A stretch of 64,000 nt of DNA from assembly GCA_000004985.1 (NCBI GenBank), contig GG738898.1. The stretch is one strand, 5' to 3'. Position 1 is the stretch's first letter. Every line of letters starts with the position of its first letter. This document shows, one piece after another, positions 26,268 through 55,366 of this stretch. The DNA is from Naegleria gruberi. Lineage: Eukaryota. Under the pieces are notes generated by a model. That model saw only the letters and a list, made by a program, of their open reading frames with translations, had not been told where the DNA came from and did not search any database. Made by a program: the position numbers and the translations under genes.

Positions 26268-29200
26268 TTAAATATTGCAATTGATGGAATGTTTTTCCAA
26301 GAGTGGAATTAAATCATTCTTAAACTTCTTCTCAAGATAGACACTCATTTGGAGATTTTGCTTACTGACATGTTTTCTACGTTGTGTGAGACCTTCTTTG
26401 AGTTGGTAGGCAAGTTGAGAGAGTCTGGTCTTGTATTTCTCAATTAAGAGTTGATTTTCCTCAGTGAGATTTTCGAGAGCCTCTGGTGATAGGTAGCGTT
26501 CCACATCCTTGTAGATTCCTCCGTGAATTCTTGGATCAATTAGGCCAGTCAGCTCAGAATCAAGAGAGGCTGTTAGTAAATTACTTTCATTCAATTTGTG
26601 GCTAACGACCAATTCCTGAACAGCATGAATTCTCAATTCTAAATAGTAAATGGCCACTTCAAGACTGTTCAATTTGAAGAGCTTCTTTTCACGAACTTCC
26701 TGAATGGTGTACATGTTAGGGAATGGTTTCTTGATGGCAAAGAAGAAAATTGAGCCATCTTGATCATCCATTGATTGTTTTGGTTCATCCATATTGCCAG
26801 CACTTGCTGATTTTTCCTCTGTTTGTTCTCTCTTAACTTTGACTCTTTTGAAAACTTTGATATTGTGACTCTTGTGATATTGTTGAATCTTTGGTGAGAT
26901 AGTTGGATCTAATAATTTGAAACTATCCTCCCCAGTAGTTTCATCCATGAAAGAGTTAATTTCCTGTTGACTGGATGGCTCAACTGGGGCCAAAAAGATA
27001 ACTTGCTGTTCACTGGTTCTGAATTTAGTCTCATCGAAACTGGATGGAATTTCTCTCTTAATAGTAGCTCCCTTGAATTTGAGTTTGATAAAGTTGACAA
27101 AATCTGCAAGTTTTTGATGATGAGCATTAAAGATAAAGTTTGTGTTCGACATGGATTTACCATAAAATCCAACAAAGTAATACTTGTTGTACTCTCTGAT
27201 GGAGGTGACAATCTTCTTGTAGAGCTTACTCTCCTCTGAGTGAACCACTGACAATTCGGCATAATTCATCTTGTTCTTGTAAATGACACGAAGCTCCTCA
27301 TTGAGAGAGATGGCTCTTTCCCAATCCTTACCCTTCTCGAACAAGTCAATAACTTCCTTGTAGAGTTTAATCTTTCTTGTACACTCTGGCTCTTCTGGAT
27401 AATTGTCAGAGAAGAGAGGCAACTCAATGTTACTATTAAAGTTTAACATTTGTGCATGTTGGAAGATGGCAAGACCAGCTTCAATATAACGTTTTCTACT
27501 CTTCTGCATACTAGCCAACAAGTGCAAATACTTGAAATACAATTGAACATTGCTATTCTTCTTGAAGGATTTGAGAGCGTTCTTGAAGGACTTTTCTTGA
27601 TTTTGGAAATTCATGGTATTTGGATCATTGGTGCTGGCAGCCTCGATATCTCTAATTTGTTTGAGCAAGTGATGAAGAGATTCCATTAAAACATCCATCT
27701 TGTTTGCAAATTCATCCTCTGCCTCAGGTCCCAACAATTCTACCATCAGTTCCTTGTAAGATTTGAGCTTGGATTCAACACATGAAATGAATGTTCTCCT
27801 AACTCCTTCAAGACCAGAAACTTCACTGAAAAATCTTTCAGTTGCAGCTTCACACAATGACAAGGAATTTCTAGAAATATGCTCCAATTTCAATAAATCA
27901 AAGAATAAATTCTTGGCCACTGATGCAATTTCAGAGACATGAATCTTGAACAATTTGATTGTCTTTTCGATTAAATCAGGAAGGAGACTTTCTTGCAGTT
28001 GTAGTGGTGAAAAGCTCCAAATACAATCATAAAAGACCTGTAGAATTCCGTGACGAGTATCGTTTTGACTGAGGAAGAGTTTTCTGTCATAGGATGGCAT
28101 CTTTTCTGGTTCAAAACTAAAGATGGCATCAAACAAGTGCCTAACCAACAATTGAGAGAGTTTAACAATTCTATAAACATTAAACTCAGCAGGAGGTGAA
28201 TTAGTTGACACGGATCGTTCTTGTGACAAGTTGTGAATGGTAGTGATGGAGCAACCTTCCATGGTTGTAATGTACTTTTTCAACTTTAGGAAAATCATTA
28301 GAATAATGTTTGCAATTGTGCCGTATTGGTAAATGTTGAGTTGTGTCCAATTCTTTGGGAGTGGGTTCTTCTTGGATAGCACAATAGAAATCAAATCCAA
28401 GAGAAGGTCCTTTGTATCGAGTTCGGCAAGTTGTGAATTTTCATTCAAATTTGCAAAGATAGTATCCAAAACTCCCTTGAATGTTAAAAGATCTAAAAAG
28501 TTAACAATGGTGAGAATAATATCACAACTGATACGTTTGGCTTGGTTGATTTCTGGTTCAAATTTTTTGGCAATCAATGAATTATTTGTCCTGGCATCTC
28601 TAGTAGTGGAATCCAAAGTTTGAGTGGCTGTCTCTTGTTCAGTTCGCTCTCTGGAATATTCTGCCTCCAATTCTTCTGTTCTCTCCAGAGAAACATCAAA
28701 AGCCTCCTTCAACATGCTCAGTAAACCGAAAAAGTCAATCAAACTTGTGGCACATTCTTTCATCTTCTCTCTGTGCTCCTTGCTTAGAAGAGCAGTGTCA
28801 GTTTCCTCCTCACTAACAACAGTCATTCGTTCCGTTTGATGCTCGGAAGTTGTGGAGATGTTCAAATCACCCAGTCCAAAAGTACTCTTAAATGACTTGC
28901 CATCGTGTGACATACGAGTTTTGAAGAGATGAATAATCTTGTTCATGATCGATATTGATTTTGGTTCGAGGAAACATTCACTATAACCCTCAAGTGCCTC
29001 TAAAACTATTGGATAGAGAGTTTTAGATAGTGTTCCTTTTTGGAAAGGTTCTGAGGAAATGATATTATCAAAAAAGTGTAACTTTCGGTAAGATTCTTCT
29101 GCAGGTATGGCAGAGGAAAACTTTTCAATAATTCTTCCTAATCTATGTTCATTGAACAAATCTCGTACTGTTGTGAAAAAGTCTGGTGTCATTGTATCAA

Positions 29201-32200
29201 AGAGGGCATTCTTGACAGACTTGAAGATTGTTATTGTTTCTGTTTCTGGCTTTTGAATGAGCTGGTTAAGTTTTACATTTATCAGAGAAAGCTCATTCTG
29301 GAAAAATCTCAACTCCTCCTCAGCAAATTGTGGATATTTACGTTTAAAGTTGGTGAGGGAACTCTCAGCAATTTTGAGTAAATAATTAAGAGATTTGATG
29401 GCACGTATAAGTTTTTCTTTTGTTCCTACAGTCATATCATCAAGCTTAATCAAATCAAAATGCTTATTCAGGTAGAAAAGTATGAAACGATGACTCAGAC
29501 TGTACTGAAGAGACTTCTTGAAATCCTCAATGATAGAGATGGATGTTTCTGGAGAATCAACAAACTGAGCCAACAAAATACAAATCTTTTCAAAGACCTT
29601 CTGTAAAAGTTGACTCTCTTTGAATTCAAATGAATCACTTGTCTTTGGTTTGCCATACTTGTTGGCAATTCCAAGGAATGATGTCATTATCTCACGGAAA
29701 CATATAGTCGTATCGACTGTCTTGAAGTCAATATTGTTAATAATTGATTGAATGTTAGTTTCATCCATAATATCCCACTTTAAAAAGTCTCTCAGATTAG
29801 GATTGATCGCAATTGAAGTAGAGACAACATTAACAGCAAGACAGAGCTTGGCATTCTTTTGACACTTTTGTTTGATTGGTTCATTTTGGTCAAATTCATG
29901 AATATTCGTAAAGCCCTTTGTGAAATCATAGCATGGAAGAGGATCAATTTGAGTTTCATTTCCAAGTGTTAGAGTTCTGGTTCCATCATCAACATGGAAG
30001 TAAGCGAAAAAGTCTGGTGAAATTTCATATGCATTCTTCTTGGTATTTACAACATAAAATTCGAATACAATGATGGCAGATTGAAGTTGATGAGAATTTA
30101 CATTGACTAACAGAATTTCACTCCATGATGGGTTTTTCATTCTCACAATAGCACTATTAAAGAGTAAATTAAATTGTTTGATTATTCCTACTTACGATCT
30201 GTAAACTCTCTGCTTTCTATTGATATCACATTGAATAGTCATACCATCTTTGCCCTTTATGTACATCTTAGCTTCGACAAAGAGAGTCTTGACATTCTTG
30301 TTCAGAACATTCTTAACATTGATATAGATATCATTTCTAATATCGTCCGATATGATAGAACTGCTGAATCTTGTCATTGGAACGAGAGGAAGTTGAGAAA
30401 GTTGAGGATATTGCTTGTATGCTTTGTGATAATCTCCTGTGACCATACTGAGTGAAACATCAATTCCCATAATATCCTCTCTCTCAAGATTTTGATCATC
30501 ATTCATTACTTGATCGAGGAAGGAATCCAAATTGTCATTGCTCTTGAAGTTGAAAAAGGTAACCTCATGTTTAAGAGTGACACCACCAGCAAGTTCAGAA
30601 ACCACAGACTTGGTAAGTTTTGGTGAAACACCAACCGCCATAGGTATTCTGCAATCCAAAAAGGTCTTTCCATTGACTGGTGTGTCCAATTTAACTCTCT
30701 CCACTCTGAAGGCACGTACAAGAATGAGCATTTGTTCCCTCTCTATGAAAGCTCTTGAAACATCCTTGAAGAGTGCATAGAGATTTTGTCGTTGTCTAAG
30801 AGTTGCATCTTCCTCATCATGGTTGCCTGAGGAATTAATAGAAACATGTCNNNNNNNNNNNNNNNNNNNNNNNNNNNNNNNNNNNNNNNNNNNNNNNNNN
30901 AACTTGTCGCTATCTTCAAAACCTCTTCAGGGCCAGTAACACTCACTCTAGAATGATGCATGCTCGATGTGAAAATAACCAAATCTTCAGAAAGGAATGA
31001 TTTGGTAGAAATATCAAACAAACTAAATCTCCACTCCACTTTCAAATAGTAGGAACAGCCTCCAATTTCTATGGCCAATTGAGAGTTTCCTTCAGGTATT
31101 CTACTATATGATCTTCTCTTAGTCTTTAAAATGCTAAGGGCCAAATTACTCTCCTCCTTGTCAATAGTTTCCCAGTACATTTTGTACAAGTCGAAGAGAG
31201 GAGTATTGAGAGGTGACAATTTTTCGCCATTCTTCTTAATAACAACATCTTCACTAAAGAGAGATGCCCCCTCCTCTCTCAAGCTTACTTGAGATTTGAG
31301 AATTTCCTTCATTCTGGATTTGTAATTTTCCGAATCTTCTCTCCTCTGATAGGAATAATAATCAATGAGATAATTGATCATTCTAGCTTCAATTTCGAAT
31401 ACTCTCATGAATCGATCTCTGTTATCTTCCTGAGTTACCAAGGATTCAAAGTGACTCAAATTCCACTCATACACAGTTTCAATCATGGACTTGCAGAAAG
31501 GAACAGCCAAAAATGGTGAGAACCAATTATCCTCCAAGAAGGGAACAATTTCTCGTTGATAGTGTTGTGACATGTTTTGCAAGATTTCAACACTAGCTCC
31601 CAAATAGTTCGATTGTGCATAAATTTGTTCTGGAAAGACATTTCCAAGAGCTATCAATGCATTCGAAATGATAATATTTGCATTCTTTGGAGCTATGGCA
31701 AAAGCTGCATTGGAAGCAATGCTTTGGCTTCTTTTTCTGTCATGATTGCTACCTTTTGGAGAGAGTAATTTATCATTGTCATTACCACCACTGGAAAAGA
31801 TGTTATCTGCAAGGGAAGAAGTTCTCTGATTGGAAAATTCTTCTCTGCTAGCACTTGCTGAGAAAACATTTGACAAGTTCATACCTGACAAATTCAAACT
31901 AGCTCTCTTATTCTTTGAGGAATCATTGATAATACTTTGTCTCTTATCCACTGTTGGTGTGAGTGGCTTTCTTTCTGACTTTTCTGAAGGAGTTGGTGAT
32001 TCATAGCTCTTATCTTTTGAAATGTAATTTTCCAATTTTTGTTTGGTAGCACTAAAACTATTCATTAAACCTCTACGAAATGATTTGGCTCGATGTTGTT
32101 GATGTTGATTAGCAGGTGAAGTAAATGTTGGACTGACGTGTCCAGTTCCATTCATGTGTAAATTACTATCCGAAATGCTAAATGCACTATTAGAAAGAAA

Positions 32201-34279: not shown

Positions 34280-34807
34280 GTTGTTTTCTGTAATGAAAGA
34301 AGCTTTTAAACCAATTTCTGTGTACGGTTGCTTTTTCTAGAAACATGCTGACCTGGAGTCGTTATCAATTCAAGATATGAATATTACAAGGCATGGTTCA
34401 ATGTTTTTTATCAATGAAACATTCTATTTGAACTTAAACTTCTAATAGCAACACATACAAATGATTACAATAGTATCCAATAGTCTTCCACGATTATTCC
34501 TTCTCTCAATATTTTATAGACCTGACTTCCAAATTATCATATATAGCTGGAGATAAGGAGTTTAAAAATGAGCGATTCATTACAAGGAAGTCTAATTCGA
34601 ATTTATCCCTACGAAGAGTGAACAGTACTACTTCCTTTTCCATTTCATCATCTCATTTAATTATTTCCCCCAAGCAACCTTCCACTGTAATCAGAGCAAG
34701 ATCCCGGCTCCGTGAAAAGGTCGTCTCTGTGTGAATGCTATTAAACTATTGCCTTCTTGTGTTGTGGTCTGCAAATTTCAATCAAGAAAAAAACTTGTGA
34801 GATTAGT

Positions 34808-37723
34808 ATGAGAAAAGGTAACAAAATGACCAGCCGCTATCATCAGCATCATTGGTCCATAATGATAATGATACTGTTGATTATTTCTTTTTCAATGATT
34901 GTTAACATTCATGCTGCATGGGATTTTAGTAGATTTTCCACTCACATGGAACAAATTCAACAATTGCACAATACCTTCTTCGCCAATATCAAGGGAGGTG
35001 CTTCCACTGCAATCTTATTCAGAAATGAAACTGTTGGCGAGGTGTTTGCTGGCATTGCTCAAGGAAATCAAAAGCCAACCAGAGATACCAAGTATAGAAT
35101 TGCTTCAGTAACCAAGACATTTGTCTCTGCTGCCATGATGGCCTTGAGAGATGAAGGACTCATTGATTTGGATCAATCAGTTTGTGATTTTGTTCCTGAA
35201 TTTTGTACCTTTCCAAATCCTGATGGATTATCTTCCAATTTCACATTCAGACAACTTTCATCCTATTTGAGTGGATTGCCAAGAGAAGCTCCATGTGTTC
35301 TCACTGCATGTGATTATTCCAATGGTCAAATAATGCAAAGAATTAAGGAGAATGGATTGTTCCTTGTTAGAGATGGTGATCATTATCCAATTTATTCCAA
35401 TCTTGGATATTCCTTCTTGGGACATGCATTGGAGAGTGCTGCCAAGATTAGTTTCGAACAAGTTATTCAGAGTAGAATTTTAGACAAGTTGGGCATGAAG
35501 AATTCTGGCTTTGTCAATAAGGACAATTTGAACAATCTCATTTTGGCTGAAGGTTATCATGAAAGTGAAAGAATTTACACCAACAACAAGACCATCTCTT
35601 GGTCTCAACCTGCTGCTGGAATGTATTCTAGCATTGCTGATTTGACATTGTACGTCAAGAATTTGATGAATGCATTTGCAAATTATGGAAACAAGATGGA
35701 AACATCCATCATGAGTAGACAAACATTGAGAGAGTTTTTGAATGCACAACATGTTCTTCCTCATGGCTCTGCTGCTGTTGGATTGAGTTGGGAAATGGTT
35801 CATTATCCATTCTTGGGAGGTTGGGCCATTATGAAGAGCGGTTTGATTGGTGGTTACAATGCTCAAGTTGTCATGATTCCTCATTGTGAGATGGCTGTCA
35901 TTACATTGCTTTCAAGAGATGATGGTGCACAATCTTTGGCTTTACAATCTGCTGCAACTATTGCTTCTGCAATGAAGGATTACTTGACTGAATTGAGAGA
36001 GAAGGAAATTGCTGGTAATTTTGGCTCTTTAGTCTCACAATACAAACAATCTGGAAATATTGTTAGTTTGGAACTTGGTAATGTCACCAATTCCAACCAA
36101 AAGTTACTCAATATTAGAAACCCAATTAGTTCACTTTCTCAATCTTTCAACTTGCTTCCAAGTAAGGAAAATGAATTTATTATTCAACCATACGATATTC
36201 CAACAAGAGTTCAATATGAAAAGGGATTAGGTGGAAGTAGGGTTATGACAAGAAGTGATCTTGCCAATATCACTTCACCTGATTTTGATTTATTTGCCAA
36301 CACCCTGTCTACTTCCAACAAGAGAAACTTGGAAAGACAAGCTATCACCTCTGTTTGTAATCACATTCCAAAGGATGTTTCACTCTCATTGCCAATCACT
36401 CAAAGTGATGCTGCTACTGCTTTGAAAAATTTGGGAGATTCAGTTTCTGCATTTGCTTCTCAAACTGGATCAAAAGTTGCTATCCAAGTTAACTATAAGG
36501 GTCAACAGGTTATTATGTTTACATTTGGATCTAGTACTGATTCTACTTCCTTCAATATTGGAACACTTACTCAACTCTTTACTTCCACTGCTATTCTTAT
36601 TGCCAAAGAGAAGGGACTTATCAAATCACTCGATGATCCTATTGTTAAATATCTTCCTCAAATTGTTTATCAAGAAAACTTGCCATTTGAGAATAACATG
36701 ACCATACGTCAATTGATGAATCATGCTTCAGGACTTCCAATTATTGCACCTTGTGATGATACTGACACCTGCTCATTGAACTGGAATCAATATGTTGAAA
36801 AAACAATGGCTGAACAACACATCATTCAACCAAGCTCAACTCTTAGAACATTCTCTACTATTGGATTTTCAATTTTAGGAAGATTGATTGCTTCTTTGAA
36901 AGGAGTAGTTTCATTCAATCAATTCGTTACTGACAATATTTTGACTCCTCTCAAAATGACTGATTCAGGATTCAAGTCTGCTTCATTCTTGGCCTCAAAT
37001 TCTGAAATGTATTCATCCATTAGAGATGTTTCCAAGTTTTTGAATTGTATTTCTGGAATTCATAGGGAATGCTCAATTATTAAGAAGGAATCATCCAGAT
37101 TACTCCACTTGAGAAATTTACTCTCCAACGACAAGGCAATGAGTATGTCACTTGGTTCATTTGAGCATGAATTCTCTAATGGCATTTGGTTTGCTTCCAA
37201 GTATGGATCTATTAAGGGTTACAGTTCCTATGTTGCTATGAATGACGATTTGGATCTCTCTGTTGTTGTATTGTCATCTTCAGATAATAATGTGGGAAAG
37301 TATCTTGTCAATAACCAAAGTGCCATTCCAAACTTGTTCAAAGCATTCACAACAGCACTTCAACAACAACCATCTTTCTTAAAAGCCAACACATCTCTTC
37401 CTAGTCAGGAATTGCTTAAGGATATGAAGGGTATTTACAAGGTATTCGATCAATTCCTTCTCTTTACTCAATATCTTCAAATTGATTACAATGCTCAATT
37501 GGGTTTGATCACTTTTGCATTTGTTGAAAGTGCTACTCCAGCACAATCTTCTGCATCTCCAAACTTTGTTTTGGAAATGATATCACCACAAGATAATCTC
37601 ACTTACAAGGTTAAAACATTGAGCACATTGTCTTGTATGGGAAATGTNNNNNNNNNNNNNNNNNNNNNNNNNNNNNNNNNNNNNNNNNNNNNNNNNNCAG
37701 GCATCCAATGCATTATTGAATAG
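34808..37723 (+). CDS. Secreted serine beta-lactamase/esterase-fold protein (LACTB/PBP4-like) with two tandem beta-lactamase-like domains
   Basis: A signal peptide (IMIMILLIISFSMIVNIHAA) is followed by domain 1 with SVTK (SxxK) and YSNLG (YxN) motifs. Domain 2 (..FTFGSSTDSTSFNIGTLTQLF..) has the SxxK serine replaced (TLTQ). The ORF crosses a 50-N gap at 37648-37697, so the C-terminus is uncertain. The start could be ATG 34808 or 34826. Confidence 0.7.
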   Translation: MRKGNKMTSRYHQHHWSIMIMILLIISFSMIVNIHAAWDFSRFSTHMEQIQQLHNTFFANIKGGASTAILFRNETVGEVFAGIAQGNQKPTRDTKYRIASVTKTFVSAAMMALRDEGLIDLDQSVCDFVPEFCTFPNPDGLSSNFTFRQLSSYLSGLPREAPCVLTACDYSNGQIMQRIKENGLFLVRDGDHYPIYSNLGYSFLGHALESAAKISFEQVIQSRILDKLGMKNSGFVNKDNLNNLILAEGYHESERIYTNNKTISWSQPAAGMYSSIADLTLYVKNLMNAFANYGNKMETSIMSRQTLREFLNAQHVLPHGSAAVGLSWEMVHYPFLGGWAIMKSGLIGGYNAQVVMIPHCEMAVITLLSRDDGAQSLALQSAATIASAMKDYLTELREKEIAGNFGSLVSQYKQSGNIVSLELGNVTNSNQKLLNIRNPISSLSQSFNLLPSKENEFIIQPYDIPTRVQYEKGLGGSRVMTRSDLANITSPDFDLFANTLSTSNKRNLERQAITSVCNHIPKDVSLSLPITQSDAATALKNLGDSVSAFASQTGSKVAIQVNYKGQQVIMFTFGSSTDSTSFNIGTLTQLFTSTAILIAKEKGLIKSLDDPIVKYLPQIVYQENLPFENNMTIRQLMNHASGLPIIAPCDDTDTCSLNWNQYVEKTMAEQHIIQPSSTLRTFSTIGFSILGRLIASLKGVVSFNQFVTDNILTPLKMTDSGFKSASFLASNSEMYSSIRDVSKFLNCISGIHRECSIIKKESSRLLHLRNLLSNDKAMSMSLGSFEHEFSNGIWFASKYGSIKGYSSYVAMNDDLDLSVVVLSSSDNNVGKYLVNNQSAIPNLFKAFTTALQQQPSFLKANTSLPSQELLKDMKGIYKVFDQFLLFTQYLQIDYNAQLGLITFAFVESATPAQSSASPNFVLEMISPQDNLTYKVKTLSTLSCMGNXXXXXXXXXXXXXXXXXXGIQCIIE

Positions 37724-37840: not shown

Positions 37841-39100
37841 TCATTCATTACATAGTTGCGTAAGGTTTTTCAATTTGGAAATTTCTTTCAATCCTGTCGC
37901 ATCAATCCTAATATAATTTTTAGAAATATCAAGTGAGGTGAGGTTGAAAAGACCTGTTCCAATATACTTTGCTCCTTCTGAACTGATATTACACCAACTA
38001 ATATCAAGTTTTGTCAATTTTGTCATTGTGGATATTTGTTTTGCTCCTTCAGTGGATAATCTATTACCAAATATTGACAGGCTAGTCAGATTTTCCATTG
38101 AGCTGATTATACTTGCACCAATGCTATCTATGTTACAGTTTGCAACATTTAAGCTCGTAATTCCTTTCATTCCATTAATCAATTTCAAACCTGAAATACG
38201 AATAGTATTTTCCGAAATGTTCAGGAGTTTCAATTTTTTCAATGGTAACAAAAAATTGACATCCGTTAACTTATTGTAAGAAATACCTAGAGAGGTCAAA
38301 TTGGTAAAGTTCTTGATTACTTCGGCACCTGATGCTGCTATTCTATTTCCACTAATATCTAGGAATGTCAAATTGGTGAGATTACTCAAACATAGAGCTC
38401 CATCTGCTCCAATACTATTATCAGAAATGTCCAATTCAGTCAGTCCAATTAATTTTCCAATATCTTCCGCACATCTATTATCAAAACGATTTTTTGAAAT
38501 GTTTAGTGATAATAAATTTGTCAGTGAGCTTGTATTTTCACATTTATGCATTACATTTTTGGAAAGGTTTAGCTTTCTCAAACCTTTTAGCCTTCCAATC
38601 CATTTAATTTCCTTTTCTAATGCAAGAAATCCGATCACTCTTTCCATATCCAATGATTGAATTCTTTCAATAAACAATTTTTGTTCTGAAGTTTCCTCTA
38701 AATTCGAATACTTTCGTAACATGCTCCTAAATCTCTTCCAAGCTGACCAATCACTTATTTTCACATCAAAGACATGTCTTGTACAAGCCACACGAAACCA
38801 CTGTTTAGAAATTAGAAAACAATTCCTAATCACCTCCTTCGATGAAAAATATTCCATCACTTCGTAACAAACATCATCGGAAAATTCCAAACGATGATCA
38901 ATTGTTCTTTCATCACTAATTTCCGATAAATTAGGCTTGATTTTTTTGATGATTGAATCGGAAGAGCAAGAGGTTATTTGTGCTTCGAGATTTCTTTTCA
39001 TTTTTTTGAAGTAATCCAAAATTGGATTTACTACTTGATTGAAAAACATTAATATTAATGGTTCTCTCCGAATGATAAACAAACCAAAAAGTGGTGCCAA
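37841..39100 (-). CDS. F-box-like / RI-type leucine-rich-repeat protein (intact paralog of the 746-1948 pseudogene)
   Basis: This is a 419-aa single-exon ORF. It has an F-box-like CYEVMEYFSSKEVIRNCFLISKQWFRVAC segment, then about 12 LRRs of the L..L.L..N.IG..GA..I type. Confidence 0.7.
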   Translation of the reverse strand: MAPLFGLFIIRREPLILMFFNQVVNPILDYFKKMKRNLEAQITSCSSDSIIKKIKPNLSEISDERTIDHRLEFSDDVCYEVMEYFSSKEVIRNCFLISKQWFRVACTRHVFDVKISDWSAWKRFRSMLRKYSNLEETSEQKLFIERIQSLDMERVIGFLALEKEIKWIGRLKGLRKLNLSKNVMHKCENTSSLTNLLSLNISKNRFDNRCAEDIGKLIGLTELDISDNSIGADGALCLSNLTNLTFLDISGNRIAASGAEVIKNFTNLTSLGISYNKLTDVNFLLPLKKLKLLNISENTIRISGLKLINGMKGITSLNVANCNIDSIGASIISSMENLTSLSIFGNRLSTEGAKQISTMTKLTKLDISWCNISSEGAKYIGTGLFNLTSLDISKNYIRIDATGLKEISKLKNLTQLCNE

Positions 39101-39358: not shown

Positions 39359-42300
39359 TTATTCAAAAATCTCATCTTCAACAACTGCTTTTACATGGTG
39401 CTTATCTGACAACAGATACGTGTTGCATAACCCTTTTCCTTTAACTTCGACACTTCTTTCCTCAAATTCAAATCCAATATGCTTCACTCTTTCATAAGTT
39501 GATAGTGAAATTTGAATCCTTCCTGAAAGTGATGTCGATTCCATTCTAGATGCTGTATTAACAGCATCACCCCACAAGTCGTAGGCAAACTTTTTTGTTC
39601 CAATTACACCAGCTACAGATTCTCCAGTATTCAAACCAATTCTAATATTGATCTGATGCCCAAATTCTAGTCGATGTTCCTCATTGTAAGATCTCACCAC
39701 CTGAAAAACGTCTATGGCAAATTTGAGTGTTCTTTCTGGATGGTCATCCTTTTCTGAGAGCTTGATTCCACCCACACAAAAGTAGGCATCACCAATGGTC
39801 TTGATCTTTTCCAAATTGTGTTTGTCAATGAGGGCATCAAAGCCATTCACTACATTATTCAACATGCCAACCAATTGAGTTGGATTAAGAGTTGAGGACA
39901 TTTTCGTGAAACCGACCATATCAGAGAAGAAACAAGTCATGTCATCAAACTTTTCTGCAATAAATGTATCTCCAGATTTCAATCTACTTGCGACACTCTC
40001 TGGTAAAATGGATCTTAACAAGTTTTCAGACTTTTTCTTTTCTTCAGCCAAGAGAGCGAGTTGTTTCTTGTCATTGGTCACGTCCTTAATGAAACAAGTA
40101 ATAACAGGCTTGTTATCAAAGAGTGTGGAAAATAAATTGACCTTTGCTGGAAATTTAGTTTGATTCTTTCTCAAACAATCTAAATCTACAGTTTCACCTT
40201 GAGATTCCTTTGTGGTGAGAGTTGATTGAATTAATTCGGAGATTAATCGGCTCAGCTCGTCTCTATTGTTCCTGTCGAAGAGACTTGTGAGTGAAGTACC
40301 AAGGGTATCACTTTGTTTGCAATTGAACATTTTCTGGGCTGCTGGATTGAAAATTTCAATTTCACATGCACTATTGCAAAGAACTGCTCCGTCAACAACA
40401 GAATTGAGAATATTTCTCACTTTGGATTCATCACCTGTTCCTTTAGAAATATTCTTCTTCTTTCCAAAAAGTGATCTACTTGGAAGTTTCTCATAGAGTA
40501 CGTACTCTCTTAGCTCATCAGATAATTCCAACTCTTCATATTGAACATAGTTTAAAAGCATTCTCATGTGTTCCGTATTTTTCGAATGTGATTTGAAAAT
40601 ACTTCTCAACATTAAAAAGATTGAAACAATGCAGATAGCACCAAGCACTCCAAAAACAATTACCATTGAGACAGAAGGAGTGGAACGAGTGATGGTGAAT
40701 AATGCGAGGAATTCCAGCAAGACTATACTAATGGTATGTGCCAACTCATCAATTTGGAAATGTTTCTCCAATAATTGAGAATCTGAGTAAATATTCTTCA
40801 TCAAGTCTTCATTTAGCTTTACACAACTCACCACGAATTCATCTACAATAGATTCCAAGCTGGAGCAGTTTTCACAAGCTTTAGTGGTGATAATTTCATC
40901 AATTCTTGGTACTATTCCCAAAATGGAAGGTGAGACTCCAATCTTTCCATAAATCATGTCATTATATGTAGATCTAAGATCTGTTACATTGAATCGGATA
41001 TCGTCTTTGAATAAATTTAAGGCTGAGTCATTGAACAGAGTTTTTGAATTGAAAAGTGAGCTCGGTAAATTACTGAAAGTCAATTCACCCATCTTGAATC
41101 CAATATTCTGAGTCAAAACAAGGGTCTCTGTTGTTTGTTTGACACTCAGCATGGTAGAGTAACCCAATTCTGAATTCAATACCAACTCGGCAAACATCAT
41201 AGATGCACATAATAAGGAAGCAAGAGCCATAACAATGAAAATTAAATATCGAAGCATATTTCTCTTCCTGTTGAAGGTGTTCAAAAATTGAGACGAGTTA
41301 CTGTGTGTGTACTTTCCCAATTCGGTATAAATATTCGAGATGAGCTCCTTCTTGATGTTCTTCTCGTAAGTTTTCAGAGTTCTTCCAATCTGAGAAAAGA
41401 AAATCTTCATGTACAAAAGGAAAGAAACAGCACAGATAACATAGACTCCACCAATGCTCACGAAAAAGTACAAGTAATCATTTGTAAATGTGTTCGCATT
41501 TACCTTGCATCTTTCAATGAAATCAAAGCAAATTTCTACAAAAGCATTTGTAAAACTATTGTAATTGAGATAGAGAATCATAAAGTTGTAAACATCAACT
41601 GTAGAATTGAAACCACTACTAGGATAGGACTCCACCAAGTGCATAAGAATGGAGGATATTTCTGAGAGTGAAACATTTTTTACAATGAAACTGTCATAAT
41701 ATCCACTGCTTCTTTTGTTTACAGTTGGAAGATAGAGCTTTTTTGTTTCTCCATTGTAGTCGTCATACATTTCAGGTGTGAACTTTCCAATCTTTTTTCC
41801 TTGTGACATTAGTTTAACATGCTCAATGTGTTCAACGTAGAAATCAACCCTTTCCTTCAATAATTCAGTAATTTTCTCCACCGATTGATCACTCTGTTCC
41901 AATGATAATACCATTTCATGATAAATTTGAGGAAGTGCCTTCTGGAGCGAAACTGAATTTTGAGACTGACTCATCTGCAACACTATTTGCTGATTTCTAA
42001 TCTGTTTGAAAATTGCATAACTTGAAACTGTTGGCTCGCAAACTTGCTGAACGAATTTCACATCAGCTAACACTCCATCAGAGAATACCAAACTCAATAC
42101 TGCCGCACAAATCAGGAAAGCTGCAGAAAGAAGGCAAAAACATAAGGCAAGACAAATATTGAACTCGTGTCCAATTGGTTGTGCAAGAGCCATCTTGAAT
42201 TTTTGATCTCTCTTTAAACTTGGATCTTCCTCCACACCATTCAAAAGTACATTCTCTGATATATCATCCAAATCCACTTCTACAGATTTATCATTCGCCC

Positions 42301-44437
42301 TATTATTATACAAGCCCTCAAGAAAGGCGATACTCTCCCCTCCTACTGCAGAAGTTTTCATTGCTTCCACTCGTTTTGCCTTCTTTGATTTTCTTAACAA
42401 GTTTGCTGCTTCTTCCTCTTCAAGCTCGTGTGCTTCAGAGTAGAATTCATTTGCAGTTTCTGAATCGAACTTGACCTCTTCCAAATATCTTGCATAAATT
42501 CTCAAGAAGGACTTGTTCATCTTGAAAGCTGAGAGTCTGTTTGAAAATGCAGTGTCCAAATCATTCATGATGGCTGTGCATTGTGTATTGATGATTTCTA
42601 ATGTTTCCACATTCACAATATCATTCATCATTTCCTTGAAGAATTCTCTATGGAGTGCTTTGAATTCTTTCAGTTTGGAGTCTAAACGAGAGGCAAGTTG
42701 TTCTGCATCGGTATGGATAGCGACAACTGGTTTGTTCTCCTTCTTGTTAATTTCCTTCATCAAATCATGACAAGCAATCTTGTCAGTGAGTGATGTACTT
42801 ATTCTACTTAGTTTTGTCATTAGTGAGAGGGAATAATTTGTGGCTCTCTCCTCTGTCATGCAGTAATAGACCAATAATGTGGCAAAATATAAGGTTATTG
42901 GATTTGCCAAAACTCTACTACTATGAGCCCCCTTAATGAGTGCCAGAGCCATGTCAGTATCTGTGAGTGAGCTATTTGGATCCTTTGGTTTTTCCTCATA
43001 ATTTGTTGCTCTCTTACGAATAATATCAACTGAGAAGCTAAAACGGAGAAAAATATTCAGTTGATTTGTTAGTTGTTTTTCTGAAATGTAAACTAGTATT
43101 GAGGTGGCTTTCTTTTCAATGAGACTTCGTATAGTCTCATTAGAAAGACTCTTTATAAGATTTGATTCTTTAGAAGAACTCAAATCCTCATATTGCCCAC
43201 CTTGTGTGAGAATAATCTGTCCAATTCTTCTCTTGATAATTCTAATGTAAGCTTCCATAGCTATAATTCCTCCAACGAATCCAATGACAATCAACCCTAA
43301 GGTAAGACCCATCATTCCCAATCCAAAATCCCATTTCACTGAAGTGTTAGTTAAAGAAGATATTAATGATCCAATGGCACCTCCAACTTTTGCTCCTGCA
43401 ATTCCTGAATAAATCGAATTTTCCCAAGACTTTTGGAATGGAAGAGATAGAAACAAAGGAATAAACCATGAAATAGACATGACCAAATGCACAATTGCTC
43501 TCCCAAAAACTTTTTGAGAGGGTATAAAGAAAATAATGAACACTTGTGAAATATTCGTGATGGAGAAGAATGTTAAAGGCCAATCATAAACCGGTTTGAA
43601 AACAAGAGAGCTATCCCATGTAGGAGAAAAACTAAAACGTGTCGCCATTATACTAATGCACAAAGTGATGAAGGCAACAATTGAGAATGCATAAAGAGTT
43701 AAATTTGAATTTCCAAAACATCTCACACTAGAAAATCTCTGCAATGCATAATCTGAATTATCAATCTCCTCAAAGTATACTGTCTTTGAATAATCACATT
43801 CGATAAAACTTGTCAAAATAAAGGCAAATATCATTGATAACCCATTCATGAAAAAGCCAACAAATAGTAATAGATTCTTCAGTTTCTCCATGTGCTTACT
43901 AGCTTTAAAAACTCCCCAAGCGGAGAACATGACCACCAACATGGCTATAAAACAAATGGTAATGACCAAACTAGTGATAACAACCATAGCATCATAGGGT
44001 ACTAAATCCAATGAGAGTGTAATTGGATAATTGAGAGCACGAAAAACCCACTCTCCATACTCTCCAAAATTAAAAGATCCCAACGTTGAGACCCAAACAC
44101 TAGTCCACAATATATACAAATTATACGCAACAGATAATAAAAGCTGTTTCCATCCTCTCCTCTGTTTTCTATCTTTCATTGATGAGATGAATGTAAAGAT
44201 TGCCTGTTGTCCATTCCTCATGATTGACGAAGTGATTGATGAAGATCGTCCCGTCTGATGACTTGTCTCACTCTCCACTATACTACTTCCATCGAAAACT
44301 TCATTTTGAGGCCTCCTTATTCCCTCAAAGAGAACTGTTGAATTATCTATTGATGCTGCTTGTAGTTGATGATGAGAAACCCCACCCTGAATAAGTATAC
44401 TCGTTCGCGGAGAAACAACAACACCAGAATGTTCCAT
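39359..44437 (-). CDS. Multi-pass membrane adenylyl cyclase with PAS domain and single C-terminal class III cyclase catalytic domain
   Basis: This is a 1692-aa single-exon ORF. It has two clusters of about 6 hydrophobic helices (residues ~95-400 and ~950-1250). A PAS-like segment (NILNSVVDGAVLCNSACEIEIFNPAAQKMF...) follows. A cyclase transducer element (LLRSILPESVASRLKSGDTFIAEKFDDMTCFFSDMVGFT) and the catalytic core (KIKTIGDAYFCVGGI ... AYDLWGDAVNTASRMEST) follow, at about 40117-39487. The specificity residues K and D indicate ATP rather than GTP. Confidence 0.85.
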   Translation of the reverse strand: MEHSGVVVSPRTSILIQGGVSHHQLQAASIDNSTVLFEGIRRPQNEVFDGSSIVESETSHQTGRSSSITSSIMRNGQQAIFTFISSMKDRKQRRGWKQLLLSVAYNLYILWTSVWVSTLGSFNFGEYGEWVFRALNYPITLSLDLVPYDAMVVITSLVITICFIAMLVVMFSAWGVFKASKHMEKLKNLLLFVGFFMNGLSMIFAFILTSFIECDYSKTVYFEEIDNSDYALQRFSSVRCFGNSNLTLYAFSIVAFITLCISIMATRFSFSPTWDSSLVFKPVYDWPLTFFSITNISQVFIIFFIPSQKVFGRAIVHLVMSISWFIPLFLSLPFQKSWENSIYSGIAGAKVGGAIGSLISSLTNTSVKWDFGLGMMGLTLGLIVIGFVGGIIAMEAYIRIIKRRIGQIILTQGGQYEDLSSSKESNLIKSLSNETIRSLIEKKATSILVYISEKQLTNQLNIFLRFSFSVDIIRKRATNYEEKPKDPNSSLTDTDMALALIKGAHSSRVLANPITLYFATLLVYYCMTEERATNYSLSLMTKLSRISTSLTDKIACHDLMKEINKKENKPVVAIHTDAEQLASRLDSKLKEFKALHREFFKEMMNDIVNVETLEIINTQCTAIMNDLDTAFSNRLSAFKMNKSFLRIYARYLEEVKFDSETANEFYSEAHELEEEEAANLLRKSKKAKRVEAMKTSAVGGESIAFLEGLYNNRANDKSVEVDLDDISENVLLNGVEEDPSLKRDQKFKMALAQPIGHEFNICLALCFCLLSAAFLICAAVLSLVFSDGVLADVKFVQQVCEPTVSSYAIFKQIRNQQIVLQMSQSQNSVSLQKALPQIYHEMVLSLEQSDQSVEKITELLKERVDFYVEHIEHVKLMSQGKKIGKFTPEMYDDYNGETKKLYLPTVNKRSSGYYDSFIVKNVSLSEISSILMHLVESYPSSGFNSTVDVYNFMILYLNYNSFTNAFVEICFDFIERCKVNANTFTNDYLYFFVSIGGVYVICAVSFLLYMKIFFSQIGRTLKTYEKNIKKELISNIYTELGKYTHSNSSQFLNTFNRKRNMLRYLIFIVMALASLLCASMMFAELVLNSELGYSTMLSVKQTTETLVLTQNIGFKMGELTFSNLPSSLFNSKTLFNDSALNLFKDDIRFNVTDLRSTYNDMIYGKIGVSPSILGIVPRIDEIITTKACENCSSLESIVDEFVVSCVKLNEDLMKNIYSDSQLLEKHFQIDELAHTISIVLLEFLALFTITRSTPSVSMVIVFGVLGAICIVSIFLMLRSIFKSHSKNTEHMRMLLNYVQYEELELSDELREYVLYEKLPSRSLFGKKKNISKGTGDESKVRNILNSVVDGAVLCNSACEIEIFNPAAQKMFNCKQSDTLGTSLTSLFDRNNRDELSRLISELIQSTLTTKESQGETVDLDCLRKNQTKFPAKVNLFSTLFDNKPVITCFIKDVTNDKKQLALLAEEKKKSENLLRSILPESVASRLKSGDTFIAEKFDDMTCFFSDMVGFTKMSSTLNPTQLVGMLNNVVNGFDALIDKHNLEKIKTIGDAYFCVGGIKLSEKDDHPERTLKFAIDVFQVVRSYNEEHRLEFGHQINIRIGLNTGESVAGVIGTKKFAYDLWGDAVNTASRMESTSLSGRIQISLSTYERVKHIGFEFEERSVEVKGKGLCNTYLLSDKHHVKAVVEDEIFE

Positions 44438-52733: not shown

Positions 52734-55366
52734 ATGAACAAGACATTTGGCATGTTATCATGTCTGTTACTCTGTCTCATTGTATGCCTCGTCAGTGAAG
52801 AGACACACGCATTGACAGCAACAGAATTATTGCAAGTTAGAGCAACTCTCCTTTCAAATGTCACTTCAATTCCTTATTCATATGTTGGTTATTTGTTTAG
52901 TCATGGCAGCAATTCTGTTCCAATTATTGTTGGTTCTGGAGGTAATGCAGTAGTAGTTGCAGCTACTAGCTCCAATTCCTTGTCCACAGCTGGTCGAATT
53001 TGTGCATTTGGACATAACGGTTATGCATACACATCTGACATGACATCTGGCACAGCTCAATTATTGAAAAATTGTGCTAAATGGACTACCAAAAACAAAG
53101 CCAATGTCAGTTACATGCTACACGGAGTCAGTCAAAGTGGTGGCTCCACTTTTTATAACTCAATTTCAGGATTTTCATTGAACACATCAAAGAATGCATT
53201 CGACGAATTGGTTCGTCCATTAGAAAGCGTTGATTTACTAATTTTGAATTTAAATTCACTCTCAGGTGAGGCAACCTCCACTCAAATCCAAATGCTCTCC
53301 GACTTTTTGAATAGAGGTGGTGGAATTATTTGTGTAACTACTGCTTGGGCTTATTCCATTTCTGGAAATAGATTTCCTGGAAATGTGTTCTTTTCCAGAT
53401 TGGGAGTTTCATTCTATACAGCTTATTTTGAAGGTAGCCCATTTGTGGCATCTACTAAGGATTTGAGTGAAGTGAATGCTTATTTCAAATTGGAACAAAT
53501 TCAAAATACCTTTTCTTTATATGGAAATGTTTCTACAGATGATGTGAATACAGTTGGAAATATGCTATCCAATGTGTATCCAACATTGCCACAGCCAATT
53601 ACCTTAAATTCCATTGAAACGAATCAAAAAGCCAAAACTGTCTATGATTCCATTTGTGGAAGTACAACAATTTCCTTCCCAGTTTCGTCTTCTTTCCAGA
53701 AATTCTGTGTAGTCATGGTGGACACACTAAACAAGGCAAACATTTTACCAATCTCAAATAATCCACAAGTTTTGGCAGGTGAAAACTTCCCNNNNNNNNN
53801 NNNNNNNNNNNNNNNNNNNNNNNNNNNNNNNNNNNNNNNNNNNNNNNNNNNNNNNNNNNNNNNNTATATCGTATAGTGGAGGTACCATTTACTTTGATGT
53901 GTCCAAAATTCCGTTATCCTTCACTGCAACCATCACAGGACAAGTGGTAAAAANCTCCCTTTTTTAGAAATGACCTTCACACAGATTCTGATTGGAAAAA
54001 TACCATTAGAAATTATCCAGGACCTTGGGTAGAAGTTGAATCCGATTATTTCGTATTCAATGTTGAGTCGTCCTATGCCAGAAACTTGACAGAATTGACC
54101 AGTGTCACAAATTACTGGAAAAAGGTTTTGGAGCTTTATTATGAACTCTCCCAAAGACCAATTAGAGATTATAAGGAAAGAATGCAAATTGATATCGATA
54201 TTTCAATTGGATATATGCATTCTGGATACCCAATTATGGCATTTCAGGACCAAAATGAAGGAACTATTAAGGCAGTCAACCCTGCCAACATGGCTCTTGC
54301 TTCAAAAACTCCTGGACGTTGGGGACATTACCATGAATTGGGACACAATTTCCAAGTTTCTGATTGGACCTACTCTCAAGCAGTTGAAGTAACTTGTAAT
54401 ATTTTCTCTTTATATTTGGAAGAGAATTTCCCAGATTCGGCCAATACTTATGGAAAGTCGTTTAATCCACCGAGAGGTCTTGAGACCACTTTTAAGGGAA
54501 ATACTCAGGATTATAAGGGGGATTGGACAAGTGCTGGTTTATTGTTTTATTTGGATTTGATTCAAGCTTTCGGTTGGGTTTCTATTCGAAAGGCATTTGC
54601 TGAATATTATACAGCAGCTTCTGGAACTTTACCAACCAGCGAGGATGAAAAGAGAGATCAATGGGTTGTAAGATACAGTAAGATTGTTGGTAGAAATCTT
54701 GGGCCTTTCTGTGATGCTTGGAGTTTCCCAATTTCACAATCAGCCAAAAGTCAAGTTTCTAATTTAACTTCATGGATGCCAAATAATTTCATTGTTGGAT
54801 GTTCAGTAGCTCGTTTCTCTGATTCACCTTGTGCTTCATTAACCATTCAAGATAATTCCTATGCCAAGTCAACCACCTATGAAGTGAAAATTGTAACTTG
54901 GACACCAGTGAGAAGTATTTATGGTGAACGTTTCATTTTCACTTTCGGTGGTGATTCTCTTCCTCAATTACAAACTGGAACAACAGCTCTCACCTTATTG
55001 GATGGAACAACAAGTTTGAACTCAACTGCTGTTGTGACTAATAATAATGGAACGAGTATTACACTTTCGACCAATGTTGTCGAGTTTGTCAAATCTGGAC
55101 AACTATTGAAATTCTCCTTCCAAGCAAAGAATAGTGTCAAGATTGGAAGCTTTACCACTTCAATTAAGATATTGGATTCAAAGAATGTATTGGTAAATGT
55201 TGTGGAGAGACCATTAGAGTTTACCAATTCAATTGTCATTCCAACTTCATCTTCAACAGTGGTTGGAAAGAAGAGTACAGTTACTGGCAATTCTACCAAG
55301 AACGGGATGAATGTAGTGTTAATTGCATTCTTGATTGGTTGGGTATTATTTGTTTATTCCTTCTAG
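52734..55366 (+). CDS. Secreted/anchored peptidase M60-like (enhancin-like) zinc metallopeptidase with HEXXH motif
   Basis: A signal peptide (MNKTFGMLSCLLLCLIVCLVS) is followed by an N-terminal accessory region. The catalytic region contains WGHYHELGHNFQ (HEXXH). A hydrophobic C-terminus (GMNVVLIAFLIGWVLFVYSF) is compatible with a TM or GPI signal. The gene is split into two ORFs by N-gap 53792-53864 and an ambiguous base at 53954. It is probably one continuous gene. Confidence 0.7.

What the first reader, a model, noticed from the sequence alone, without database searches (positions are those of the whole stretch)
39359..44437. 12-TM-like PAS-domain adenylyl cyclase with a single catalytic domain
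The topology of two 6-helix blocks separated by a ~550-aa cytosolic region resembles metazoan tmACs. Unlike them, there is only one class III catalytic domain, which would make it an obligate homodimer. It is preceded by a PAS domain and a cyclase transducer element. The specificity residues (K in KIKTIGDAY, D in AYDLWGD) predict ATP use. The ~550-aa middle cytosolic region has no recognisable C1-like domain, so it may be a degenerate ancient catalytic half.
Basis: partly seen in the sequence, partly recalled or inferred. Interest (0 to 1): 0.55.

Follow-up and report, generated by a model that had tools for sequence, protein, structure and literature searches.

The report
Receptor-type adenylyl cyclase with TmcB-like membrane module
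This Naegleria gruberi gene encodes a cAMP-making enzyme fused to a large, uncharacterised 12-helix membrane module with two outward-facing sensor-like domains; it is not a degenerate relative of animal adenylyl cyclases, and it belongs to an unstudied receptor-cyclase family found across several protist lineages.

Summary
The 1692-aa ORF at 39359-44437(-) is real and is identical to a deposited Naegleria gruberi "predicted protein". The C-terminal part of the finding is confirmed. There is a PAS domain, a cyclase-transducer helix (SILP motif) and one class IIIa catalytic domain. All six catalytic residues are present (D1506, D1550, K1546, D1620, N1627, R1631), which predicts an ATP-specific homodimer.

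The headline claim is not confirmed. The membrane part is 8 + 4 helices, not 6 + 6. Region 400-950 is not a degenerate cyclase half. Residues 394-761 are an all-helical cytosolic region carrying the Pfam "TmcB TPR" domain. Residues 781-988 are an extracellular helical domain with a conserved Cys pair and a conserved N-glycosylation sequon.

A confident model (pLDDT 83) shows two extracellular four-helix bundles. Their best structural matches are bacterial chemoreceptor and sensor-kinase ligand-binding domains.

The whole architecture recurs in at least 9 N. gruberi paralogs. It also occurs in other Heterolobosea, a jakobid and two Amoebozoa. Cyclase-less copies of the module exist in Diphylleia and a chytrid. 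Dictyostelium TmcB, which gave the TPR domain its name, is a reported regulator of cAMP signalling.

Verdict: an uncharacterised variant of a known kind (receptor-type class III adenylyl cyclase), of moderate interest.

The parts
39359..44437 (-). Whole gene: single-exon ORF of 1692 aa plus stop codon. It is identical to a deposited N. gruberi 'predicted protein' (P0001).
44144..44437 (-). N-terminal cytosolic tail, residues 1-98. It is hydrophilic, has no signal peptide and is poorly conserved.
43259..44143 (-). Membrane block A, residues 99-393, with 8 predicted helices at 99-117, 151-169, 190-208, 246-264, 287-305, 314-332, 342-363 and 375-393. Helix 342-363 is weakly hydrophobic. In the six close family sequences it has K or R at position 350 and invariant G352 and G356 (GxxxG). 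C214 and C240 in an outward loop are invariant in the same six. P333, N340 and G372 are conserved across 103 homologs. No Pfam match.
42155..43258 (-). Cytosolic all-helical region, residues 394-761. Its tail (about 683-745) is acidic, low-complexity and predicted disordered.
42407..42673 (-). Pfam PF25474 'TmcB, TPR repeats', residues 589-677.
   Evidence: E 6.6e-10, 39.4 bits, cut-off 27; paralogs score 30-67 bits
42098..42154 (-). TM9, residues 762-780.
41474..42097 (-). Ectodomain 1, residues 781-988: a helical bundle with one beta-hairpin. C800 and C970 are each 96% conserved, and the N921-V-S sequon is 93% conserved.
41417..41473 (-). TM10, residues 989-1007.
41249..41416 (-). Short basic cytosolic loop, residues 1008-1063 (11 K/R, 3 D/E), with the conserved motif KLxxKxIxKxxxGKIYHxL.
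41192..41248 (-). TM11, residues 1064-1082.
40673..41191 (-). Ectodomain 2, residues 1083-1255: a helical bundle. The N1190 sequon is 63% conserved and C1191 is 85% conserved.
40616..40672 (-). TM12, residues 1256-1274.
40421..40615 (-). Juxtamembrane linker, residues 1275-1339, with the conserved motif MLNY.
40076..40420 (-). PAS domain, residues 1340-1454. Only structural positions are conserved; there is no conserved His or Cys.
39959..40063 (-). Cyclase-transducer (helical-domain) helix, residues 1459-1493. The centre motif is S1476-I-L-P1479, and P1479 is 100% conserved.
   Evidence: (HNOBA C-terminal piece)
39407..39958 (-). Class IIIa nucleotidyl cyclase catalytic domain, residues 1494-1677. 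Key residues: D1506 and D1550 (metal binding), K1546 and D1620 (adenine specificity), N1627 and R1631 (transition state).

Best explanation
The gene encodes a receptor-type, homodimeric, ATP-specific class IIIa adenylyl cyclase.

Shown: one catalytic domain carries all six canonical residues, so two subunits must pair head to tail to form two symmetric active sites.

Inferred: the N-terminal 1275 residues are a conserved sensor and scaffold module with three parts. The first is an 8-helix membrane block. The second is a cytosolic TmcB-type TPR region, probably a protein-docking site. The third is a 4-helix block that displays two extracellular four-helix-bundle domains, placed in the membrane as in bacterial chemoreceptor and sensor-kinase ligand-binding domains.

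Inferred mechanism: binding of an unknown extracellular ligand shifts TM10-TM12. The change passes through the juxtamembrane linker and the PAS domain into the conserved transducer helix. That helix sets the geometry of the catalytic dimer and so the rate of cAMP synthesis. The PAS domain may add a second, intracellular input or may act only as a dimerising relay.
For: Enzyme part:
- Pfam Guanylate_cyc E 1e-53.
- The best solved relatives are AC9 C2 and C1, AC8, AC5 and the homodimeric mycobacterial Cya (E 1e-49 to 1e-63), and the alignments extend through the helical domain.
- D1506, D1550, K1546, D1620, N1627 and R1631 are present and are conserved in 36-40 of 40 family members.
- The CTE motif SxL/MP is present.
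- Single-domain class III cyclases need dimerisation to be active.

Topology:
- Family-averaged hydropathy, the positive-inside rule, the conserved Cys pair C800/C970 and the conserved N921 sequon agree.

Sensor part:
- The AF2 model of residues 755-1290 has pLDDT 83 and pTM 0.80.

The module is a conserved unit:
- The exhaustive profile search found 548 hits, 104 of them at E <= 1e-30.
- The same five-part architecture occurs in dozens of representatives.
- These come from Naegleria, Willaertia, Acrasis, Pharyngomonas, Andalucia, Phalansterium and Cavostelium.

Precedent: the membrane anchors of class III cyclases can act as receptors (PMC4821796, PMC11606603, PMC9433096).
Against: - No ligand, activity, localisation or expression data exist.
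- The 8-helix block has no detectable relative of known function.
- The PAS domain has no recognisable cofactor residues.
- The protein could sit in an internal membrane and not at the cell surface.
Confidence: 0.6

Rival explanations
1. The protein is a tmAC-like 2x6-TM enzyme whose middle cytosolic region is a degenerate ancient catalytic (C1-like) half, making it an evolutionary intermediate between bacterial 6-TM cyclases and animal pseudo-heterodimers.
For: The total helix count is about 12. The catalytic domain is class IIIa, and its best matches are tmAC C2 domains.
Against: - Helices are arranged 8+4 with two large ectodomains.
- hhalign of 394-761, 400-950 and both ecto loops against the family's cyclase domain gives probabilities of 0.1-0.2%, against 100% for the control.
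- Pfam assigns a TmcB TPR to the region.
- The predicted structure is all-helical.
- The two membrane blocks are not similar to each other.
Confidence: 0.02
2. The PAS domain is the real sensor (for example of redox state, gas, a metabolite or light). The 12-TM module is mainly a membrane anchor and TPR scaffold that places the cyclase at a particular membrane or complex.
For: The PAS domain lies directly next to the transducer helix, the usual position of the regulatory domain in PAS-cyclases. The TPR region suggests protein docking. PAS hits include FixL-type sensors.
Against: - No conserved His (FixL heme) or Cys (LOV) is present, and only structural PAS positions are conserved.
- The ectodomains are as well conserved as the rest of the protein. 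They carry a conserved disulfide pair and a conserved glycosylation site, which a mere anchor would not need.
Confidence: 0.2
3. The membrane module is a transporter or channel, and the cyclase reports or is coupled to its activity. Known protist chimeras of this kind include the P4-ATPase-guanylate cyclases and the ion-channel-cyclase fusions of alveolates.
For: - The compact 8-helix block has conserved polar or small residues in or near the membrane: N340 and P333 across 103 homologs, and K/R350 and G352xxxG356 in the six close relatives.
- Chimeric transporter-cyclases exist in protists (PMC13466520, listed; the channel-cyclase example rests on my own knowledge).
Confidence: 0.12
4. It is a guanylyl cyclase or a dual-specificity cyclase, not an adenylyl cyclase.
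For: The Pfam family covers both activities. Several database names for relatives say 'guanylate cyclase domain-containing'.
Against: The specificity pair is Lys and Asp (K1546, D1620), as in adenylyl cyclases. Guanylyl cyclases carry Glu and Cys (or Ser) at these positions (established knowledge, not tested here). K is present in 39 of 40 family members and D in 40 of 40. The database names are automatic domain labels.
Confidence: 0.05

Closest known systems
Mycobacterium tuberculosis Rv1625c/Cya (homodimeric membrane class IIIa adenylyl cyclase; PDB 7yz9, 7yzk, 5o5k)
   Same: It has a single catalytic domain with all six catalytic residues and is an obligate homodimer. A helical or transducer element precedes the catalytic domain. 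Sequence similarity runs through the helical and catalytic domains (E 1e-49 to 1e-53). Its membrane domain has been proposed to act as a receptor.
   Different: Cya has 6 TM helices, and TM6 continues directly into the helical domain. The Naegleria protein has 12 helices (8+4), two large ectodomains, a 368-aa cytosolic TPR region, and a linker plus PAS domain between the last TM helix and the transducer helix.
Metazoan membrane adenylyl cyclases AC1-9 (for example bovine AC9, PDB 6r3q)
   Same: The catalytic domain is class IIIa, and the best PDB sequence matches are AC9 C2 and C1. The CTE motif SxL/MP is shared. The total number of helices is about 12.
   Different: Metazoan ACs are pseudo-heterodimers with two 6-TM bundles and two complementary catalytic halves, C1 and C2. 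This protein has one complete catalytic domain, an 8+4 helix layout, no C1-like remnant, large ectodomains, and TPR and PAS domains.
Dictyostelium discoideum TmcB (tiny macrocysts protein B) and the Pfam family PF25474 'TmcB, TPR repeats'
   Same: The cytosolic region matches the TmcB TPR model above the curated cut-off in this protein and in all five other family members scanned. TmcB is reported to regulate the cAMP pathway during sexual development (PMC12750705, PMC8516963). That fits a module that is physically fused to a cAMP-producing enzyme here.
   Different: To my knowledge, TmcB has no cyclase domain. I could not obtain a Dictyostelium TmcB sequence, so homology outside the TPR region is untested. 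Cyclase-less full modules were confirmed only in Diphylleia and a chytrid.
Bacterial four-helix-bundle extracytoplasmic sensor domains (Tsr, Tar and PcaY chemoreceptor ligand-binding domains; NarX, NarQ and TorS sensors; the NIT domain of NasR)
   Different: There is no detectable sequence similarity. The fold is generic. Here two bundles sit in one polypeptide, the first has an added beta-hairpin, and the output is a eukaryotic cyclase reached through a PAS domain and not through a HAMP domain with a kinase or methyl-accepting module.
Other protist chimeric or receptor-type cyclases: trypanosome receptor-type ACs, Dictyostelium ACG, and alveolate P4-ATPase-guanylate cyclases
   Same: A class III catalytic domain is attached to a large lineage-specific membrane or extracellular module, within expanded gene families (Naegleria has at least 81 cyclases, PMC9928731).
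   Different: The sensor modules are different: a periplasmic-binding-protein-like domain, a CHASE domain, or a P4-ATPase (mostly from my own knowledge; the P4-ATPase-guanylate cyclases are described in PMC13466520). None of them has the TmcB-type 12-TM, TPR and double-bundle module.

Membership tests
Class III (IIIa) nucleotidyl cyclase, catalytically competent homodimer type | Guanylate_cyc (PF00211) catalytic fold | tested here: met
   182 bits against a cut-off of 21.9, covering model positions 3-182 of 183.
Class III (IIIa) nucleotidyl cyclase, catalytically competent homodimer type | Two metal-binding Asp, the transition-state Asn and Arg, and the substrate-specifying pair, all in one domain | tested here: met
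   D1506, D1550, N1627, R1631, K1546 and D1620 align to the C1 and C2 residues of AC9. They are conserved in 36-40 of 40 relatives.
Class III (IIIa) nucleotidyl cyclase, catalytically competent homodimer type | Adenine specificity (Lys and Asp, not Glu and Cys) | tested here: met
   K1546 and D1620. This is a sequence prediction only; enzyme activity was not tested.
Class III (IIIa) nucleotidyl cyclase, catalytically competent homodimer type | Cyclase-transducer element with the centre motif SxL/MP directly before the catalytic domain | tested here: met
   S1476-I-L-P1479. P1479 is 100% conserved and L1478 is 93% conserved. The motif definition comes from PMC9552081.
Metazoan-type tmAC (pseudo-heterodimer) | Two hexahelical membrane bundles | tested here: not met
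   The layout is 8 + 4 helices with ectodomains of 208 and 173 aa.
Metazoan-type tmAC (pseudo-heterodimer) | Two catalytic halves, C1 and C2 (or a recognisable remnant of one) | tested here: not met
   There is only one PF00211 hit. hhalign of the middle regions against the cyclase profile gives 0.1-0.2%. The structure is all-helical. No cyclase appears among the listed fold matches.
Metazoan-type tmAC (pseudo-heterodimer) | The last TM helix of each bundle extends directly into the helical domain | tested here: not met
   A 65-aa linker and a 115-aa PAS domain separate TM12 from the transducer helix.
Rv1625c/Cya-type 6-TM homodimeric cyclase | A single 6-TM anchor followed by the helical domain and one catalytic domain | tested here: not met
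   The catalytic and helical parts match, but the membrane part has 12 helices and an unrelated layout.
TmcB/TmcC family (Pfam PF25474) | TmcB-type TPR repeat domain | tested here: met
   39.4 bits against a cut-off of 27. The other five family members scanned score 30-67 bits.
TmcB/TmcC family (Pfam PF25474) | Homology of the membrane blocks to Dictyostelium TmcA, TmcB or TmcC | not testable with these tools
   No Dictyostelium sequence could be retrieved. Cyclase-less proteins with the full module were confirmed only in Diphylleia (E 2.4e-10) and a chytrid (6.7e-7).
PAS domain sensors | PAS fold | tested here: met
   PAS_9 49.9 bits against 27; PAS 24.6 bits against 22.6. TIGR00229 28 bits against 22.9.
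PAS domain sensors | Known cofactor-binding residues (FixL proximal His; LOV Cys) | tested here: not met
   No conserved His or Cys in 40 relatives.
4HB_MCP, NIT or NarX-type extracytoplasmic sensor domains | Four-helix bundle between two TM helices on the outer face of the membrane | tested here: met
4HB_MCP, NIT or NarX-type extracytoplasmic sensor domains | Sequence-level membership (Pfam or profile match) | tested here: not met
   No such Pfam or NCBIfam hit at E <= 1. No PDB sequence hit for the module profile.

The most novel reading that the evidence does not exclude
The TmcB-type module (8 TM helices, TPR, 4 TM helices with two extracellular bundles) is an ancient eukaryotic receptor whose ancestral output is an adenylyl cyclase. 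The full module is present in Discoba, Amoebozoa, CRuMs and a chytrid fungus. A TmcB-type TPR also occurs in the stramenopile Cafeteria, and tmcB-family homologs are reported in the metamonad Carpediemonas. The fused Naegleria-type proteins are then a 'Rosetta stone'. They would explain why free-standing Dictyostelium TmcB regulates cAMP signalling: it would act as a detached sensor subunit of a cyclase.
Probability: 0.25. Interest if true: 0.6.

Novelty: new variant of a known kind. Interest (0 to 1): 0.42.

Why it matters
Naegleria encodes an unusually large set of cyclases (at least 81 across the genus), and almost nothing is known about what they sense. This analysis defines one coherent sub-family. 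It has at least 9 paralogs in N. gruberi and orthologs in the pathogen N. fowleri. It has a specific, testable anatomy: two extracellular bundle domains, a cytosolic TPR platform, a PAS relay and a competent homodimeric cyclase.

The family spans Discoba and Amoebozoa, so it is old. Its link to TmcB offers a mechanistic lead for a Dictyostelium cAMP-signalling regulator whose biochemical role is unknown. It also removes a tempting but wrong evolutionary story, that of an intermediate on the way to animal adenylyl cyclases.

Tried and rejected
- The look-up of encoding contigs found no exact record for the protein.
- Two of the three indexed homology searches were aimed at the membrane module. 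They returned only close relatives or Cafeteria TPR proteins. A Dictyostelium TmcB sequence was never obtained, so the wider TmcB homology is untested.
- The Muramoto et al. 2005 paper is not held. Its content is cited only through later papers.
- The AFDB Foldseek library was unavailable.
- Foldseek of the low-confidence full-module model against the PDB gave nothing at E <= 0.001, only generic alpha-solenoids.
- A profile of the module against PDB sequences gave nothing (best E 0.068).
- Internal duplication was tested. Block A against block B gave 0.2%. Unit TM9-ecto1-TM10 against TM11-ecto2-TM12 gave probability 7% and E 0.005, with a colinear alignment. This is a hint only and is not claimed.
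- The extra hydrophobic stretch at 1232-1250 seen in the single-sequence plot is not conserved as hydrophobic in the family. It is modelled as the last ectodomain helix, so it was rejected as a TM helix.
- Apparent cyclase-less 8-TM plus TPR proteins of N. fowleri were rejected as a separate class. At least one pair, FDP41_006142 and FDP41_006143, consists of consecutively numbered genes on one contig, and an alternative annotation in the same cluster gives a 1651-aa protein.
- Literature searches found no paper describing TmcB-type cyclases.
Full report
**Source and reality of the feature.**
The window is about 35% GC, with long intron-less ORFs and several assembly gaps. The ORF at 39359-44437 on the minus strand is uninterrupted for 1692 codons. 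At this base composition the probability of that happening by chance is about 1e-52. The product is 100% identical over its full length to a deposited "predicted protein" of Naegleria gruberi. The gene is therefore real, single-exon and already in public databases, but without any functional description.

- Pfam finds one Guanylate_cyc domain at 1494-1677 (E 1e-53) and a PAS domain at 1340-1454 (PAS_9, E 4e-13). It also finds a sub-threshold match of residues 1459-1486 to the last 28 positions of HNOBA. This is the coiled-coil piece that precedes cyclase domains.
- The best solved relatives are AC9 (C2 and C1), AC8, AC5 and the homodimeric mycobacterial Cya, with E 1e-49 to 1e-63. The alignments begin at about residues 1458-1467, inside the helix that precedes the catalytic core.
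- In those alignments D1506 (FFSDMVGFT) and D1550 (TIGDAY) pair with the C1 metal-binding aspartates.
- K1546 (KIKTIG), D1620 (YDLWGD), N1627 and R1631 (AVNTASRM) pair with the C2 substrate and transition-state residues.
- All six residues are conserved in 36-40 of 40 relatives.
- The helix 1466-1489 is nearly invariant. It contains S1476-I-L-P1479, which matches the "SxL/MP" centre of the class IIIa cyclase-transducer element.
- A single domain that carries all six residues must homodimerise to form its active sites. This is established knowledge and is restated.
- The Lys and Asp pair predicts ATP as substrate.
- The PAS domain conserves only structural positions. There is no conserved His or Cys that would indicate FixL-type heme or LOV-type flavin chemistry.

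**The membrane part: not 6 + 6.**
Single-sequence and family-averaged hydropathy, together with the secondary structure of two AlphaFold models, give the following layout.

| Segment | Residues | Notes |
|---|---|---|
| Block A, 8 helices | 99-117, 151-169, 190-208, 246-264, 287-305, 314-332, 342-363, 375-393 | 342-363 is weakly hydrophobic and Gly/Ala-rich |
| Cytosolic region | 394-761 | carries the TmcB-type TPR |
| TM9 | 762-780 | |
| Loop 1 | 781-988 (208 aa) | predicted extracellular |
| TM10 | 989-1007 | |
| Basic loop | 1008-1063 (56 aa) | 11 K/R against 3 D/E |
| TM11 | 1064-1082 | |
| Loop 2 | 1083-1255 (173 aa) | predicted extracellular |
| TM12 | 1256-1274 | |

- With the cyclase necessarily cytosolic, the two long loops are extracellular or lumenal.
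- C800 and C970 are each 96% conserved, which suggests a disulfide.
- The N921 sequon is 93% conserved. The N1190 sequon is 63% conserved and C1191 is 85% conserved.
- In block A an outward loop carries C214 and C240, which are invariant in the six close relatives.
- The total is thus 12 helices (or 11), arranged as 8 + 4.

**The middle region is not a degenerate cyclase.**
- Profile-profile comparison of family alignment slices against the family's own cyclase domain gives probabilities of 0.1-0.2%. The slices were 394-761, 400-950, 560-700 and both ecto loops. The positive control gives 100%.
- Pfam instead places "TmcB, TPR repeats" (PF25474) at 589-677, above the curated cut-off. It does the same in the five other family members scanned.
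- The region is predicted entirely alpha-helical.
- The two membrane blocks show no similarity to each other, unlike what a duplication model predicts.
- In tmACs and Cya the last TM helix runs directly into the helical domain. Here a 65-aa linker and the PAS domain lie between them.

**What the ectodomains look like.**
- Residues 755-1290 were modelled with a 27-sequence alignment of relatives that are at most about 50% identical. The model is confident, with pLDDT 83 and pTM 0.80.
- The TM helices continue as very long helices into two helical bundles. The first bundle carries a beta-hairpin.
- The same set heads the list for the independent full-module model.

**The family.**
- An exhaustive profile search with residues 97-1296 found 548 proteins at E <= 1e-3 and 104 at E <= 1e-30.
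- Local domain HMMs show the complete five-part architecture in dozens of 50%-identity representatives. The order is block A, TPR, block B, PAS, cyclase.
- Source look-ups place these in N. gruberi, with at least nine paralogs. They also place them in N. fowleri, N. lovaniensis, Willaertia magna, Acrasis kona and Pharyngomonas kirbyi. More distant members come from the jakobid Andalucia godoyi and the Amoebozoa Phalansterium solitarium and Cavostelium apophysatum.
- At least some short "TmcB/TmcC TPR" proteins of N. fowleri are split gene models.
- Cyclase-less proteins that still have both membrane blocks occur in Diphylleia rotans and in the chytrid Quaeritorhiza.
- A TmcB-type TPR also occurs in a different membrane context in Cafeteria.

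**Link to TmcB.**
Dictyostelium tmcB is described as a regulator of the cAMP pathway in sexual development (Muramoto et al. 2005, as cited in PMC12750705 and PMC8516963). A module that carries the TmcB TPR and is fused to an adenylyl cyclase in many protists suggests a functional link. I could not retrieve a Dictyostelium sequence, so homology beyond the TPR is untested. No paper in the library describes TmcB-type cyclases.

**Mechanism proposed.**
- Shown: the protein is a competent, homodimeric, ATP-type class IIIa catalytic domain preceded by a canonical transducer helix and a PAS domain. It has a conserved multi-pass module with two outward-facing helical bundles and a cytosolic TPR.
- Inferred: an extracellular signal is sensed by the bundles. 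It is transmitted through TM10-12 and the juxtamembrane linker to the PAS domain and the transducer helix, and it alters cAMP synthesis. The TPR docks partner proteins.
- Precedent for receptor function of cyclase membrane domains comes from chimeras and lipid regulation of Rv1625c and mammalian ACs.
- Rivals, in order of likelihood, are a PAS-centred sensor with a passive anchor, a transporter-coupled cyclase and a guanylyl cyclase.

**Verdict.**
The protein is an uncharacterised variant of a known kind (receptor-type class III adenylyl cyclase). Its module is conserved and widely distributed, but it has not been described in any paper I could find. Interest is moderate.

Noticed in passing
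window 6995-22945 (-): A giant uninterrupted ORF of 5316 aa, densely packed with EGF_2 and teneurin-type EGF repeats (Pfam E 1e-104 and 4.5e-100). An assembly gap at 7035-7545 lies inside its 3' part. It may be a very large extracellular or adhesion-type protein in a unicellular amoeboflagellate.
   Followed up: partly
window 34757-37723 (+): A 988-aa ORF with two matches to the beta-lactamase (serine hydrolase) fold, PF00144, E 7e-68. The ORF runs into a run of N at 37648-37697, so its C-terminus is unresolved.
   Followed up: partly
window 26268-30146 (-): A 1292-aa ORF with a DOCK-type DHR-2 lobe A domain (E 6.5e-12), so a putative Rho-family GEF.
   Followed up: no
window 37841-39100 (-): A 419-aa leucine-rich-repeat protein lies immediately downstream of the cyclase gene on the same strand. 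Nothing links it functionally to the cyclase.
   Followed up: no
window 4193-4558, 4598-4802, 7035-7545, 30851-30900, 37648-37697, 53792-53864: Runs of N (assembly gaps). None falls within the cyclase gene.
   Followed up: yes
N. fowleri proteins P0039/P0166 (FDP41_006142 and FDP41_006143) and P0171/P0172 (FDP41_007427 and FDP41_007428): Reference N. fowleri annotations appear to split members of this cyclase family into consecutively numbered genes on one contig (a 'TmcB/TmcC TPR' protein and a 'guanylate cyclase domain' protein). Alternative annotations in the same 90%-identity clusters give single proteins of 1651 and 1724 aa. Cyclase counts for N. fowleri may be affected.
   Followed up: partly
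residues 342-363 of the cyclase (window 43349-43414, -): The weakly hydrophobic seventh helix has a basic residue (K or R at position 350) and invariant G352 and G356 (a GxxxG motif) in the six close relatives. N340 is 89% conserved across 103 homologs and lies just before the helix. This may be a functional polar site within the membrane block.
   Followed up: partly
P0177 and P0178 (Cafeteria roenbergensis, about 2000 aa): The TmcB-type TPR domain also occurs together with an Mpv17/PMP22 (PF04117) membrane domain in a stramenopile. The TPR can therefore combine with other membrane modules.
   Followed up: no
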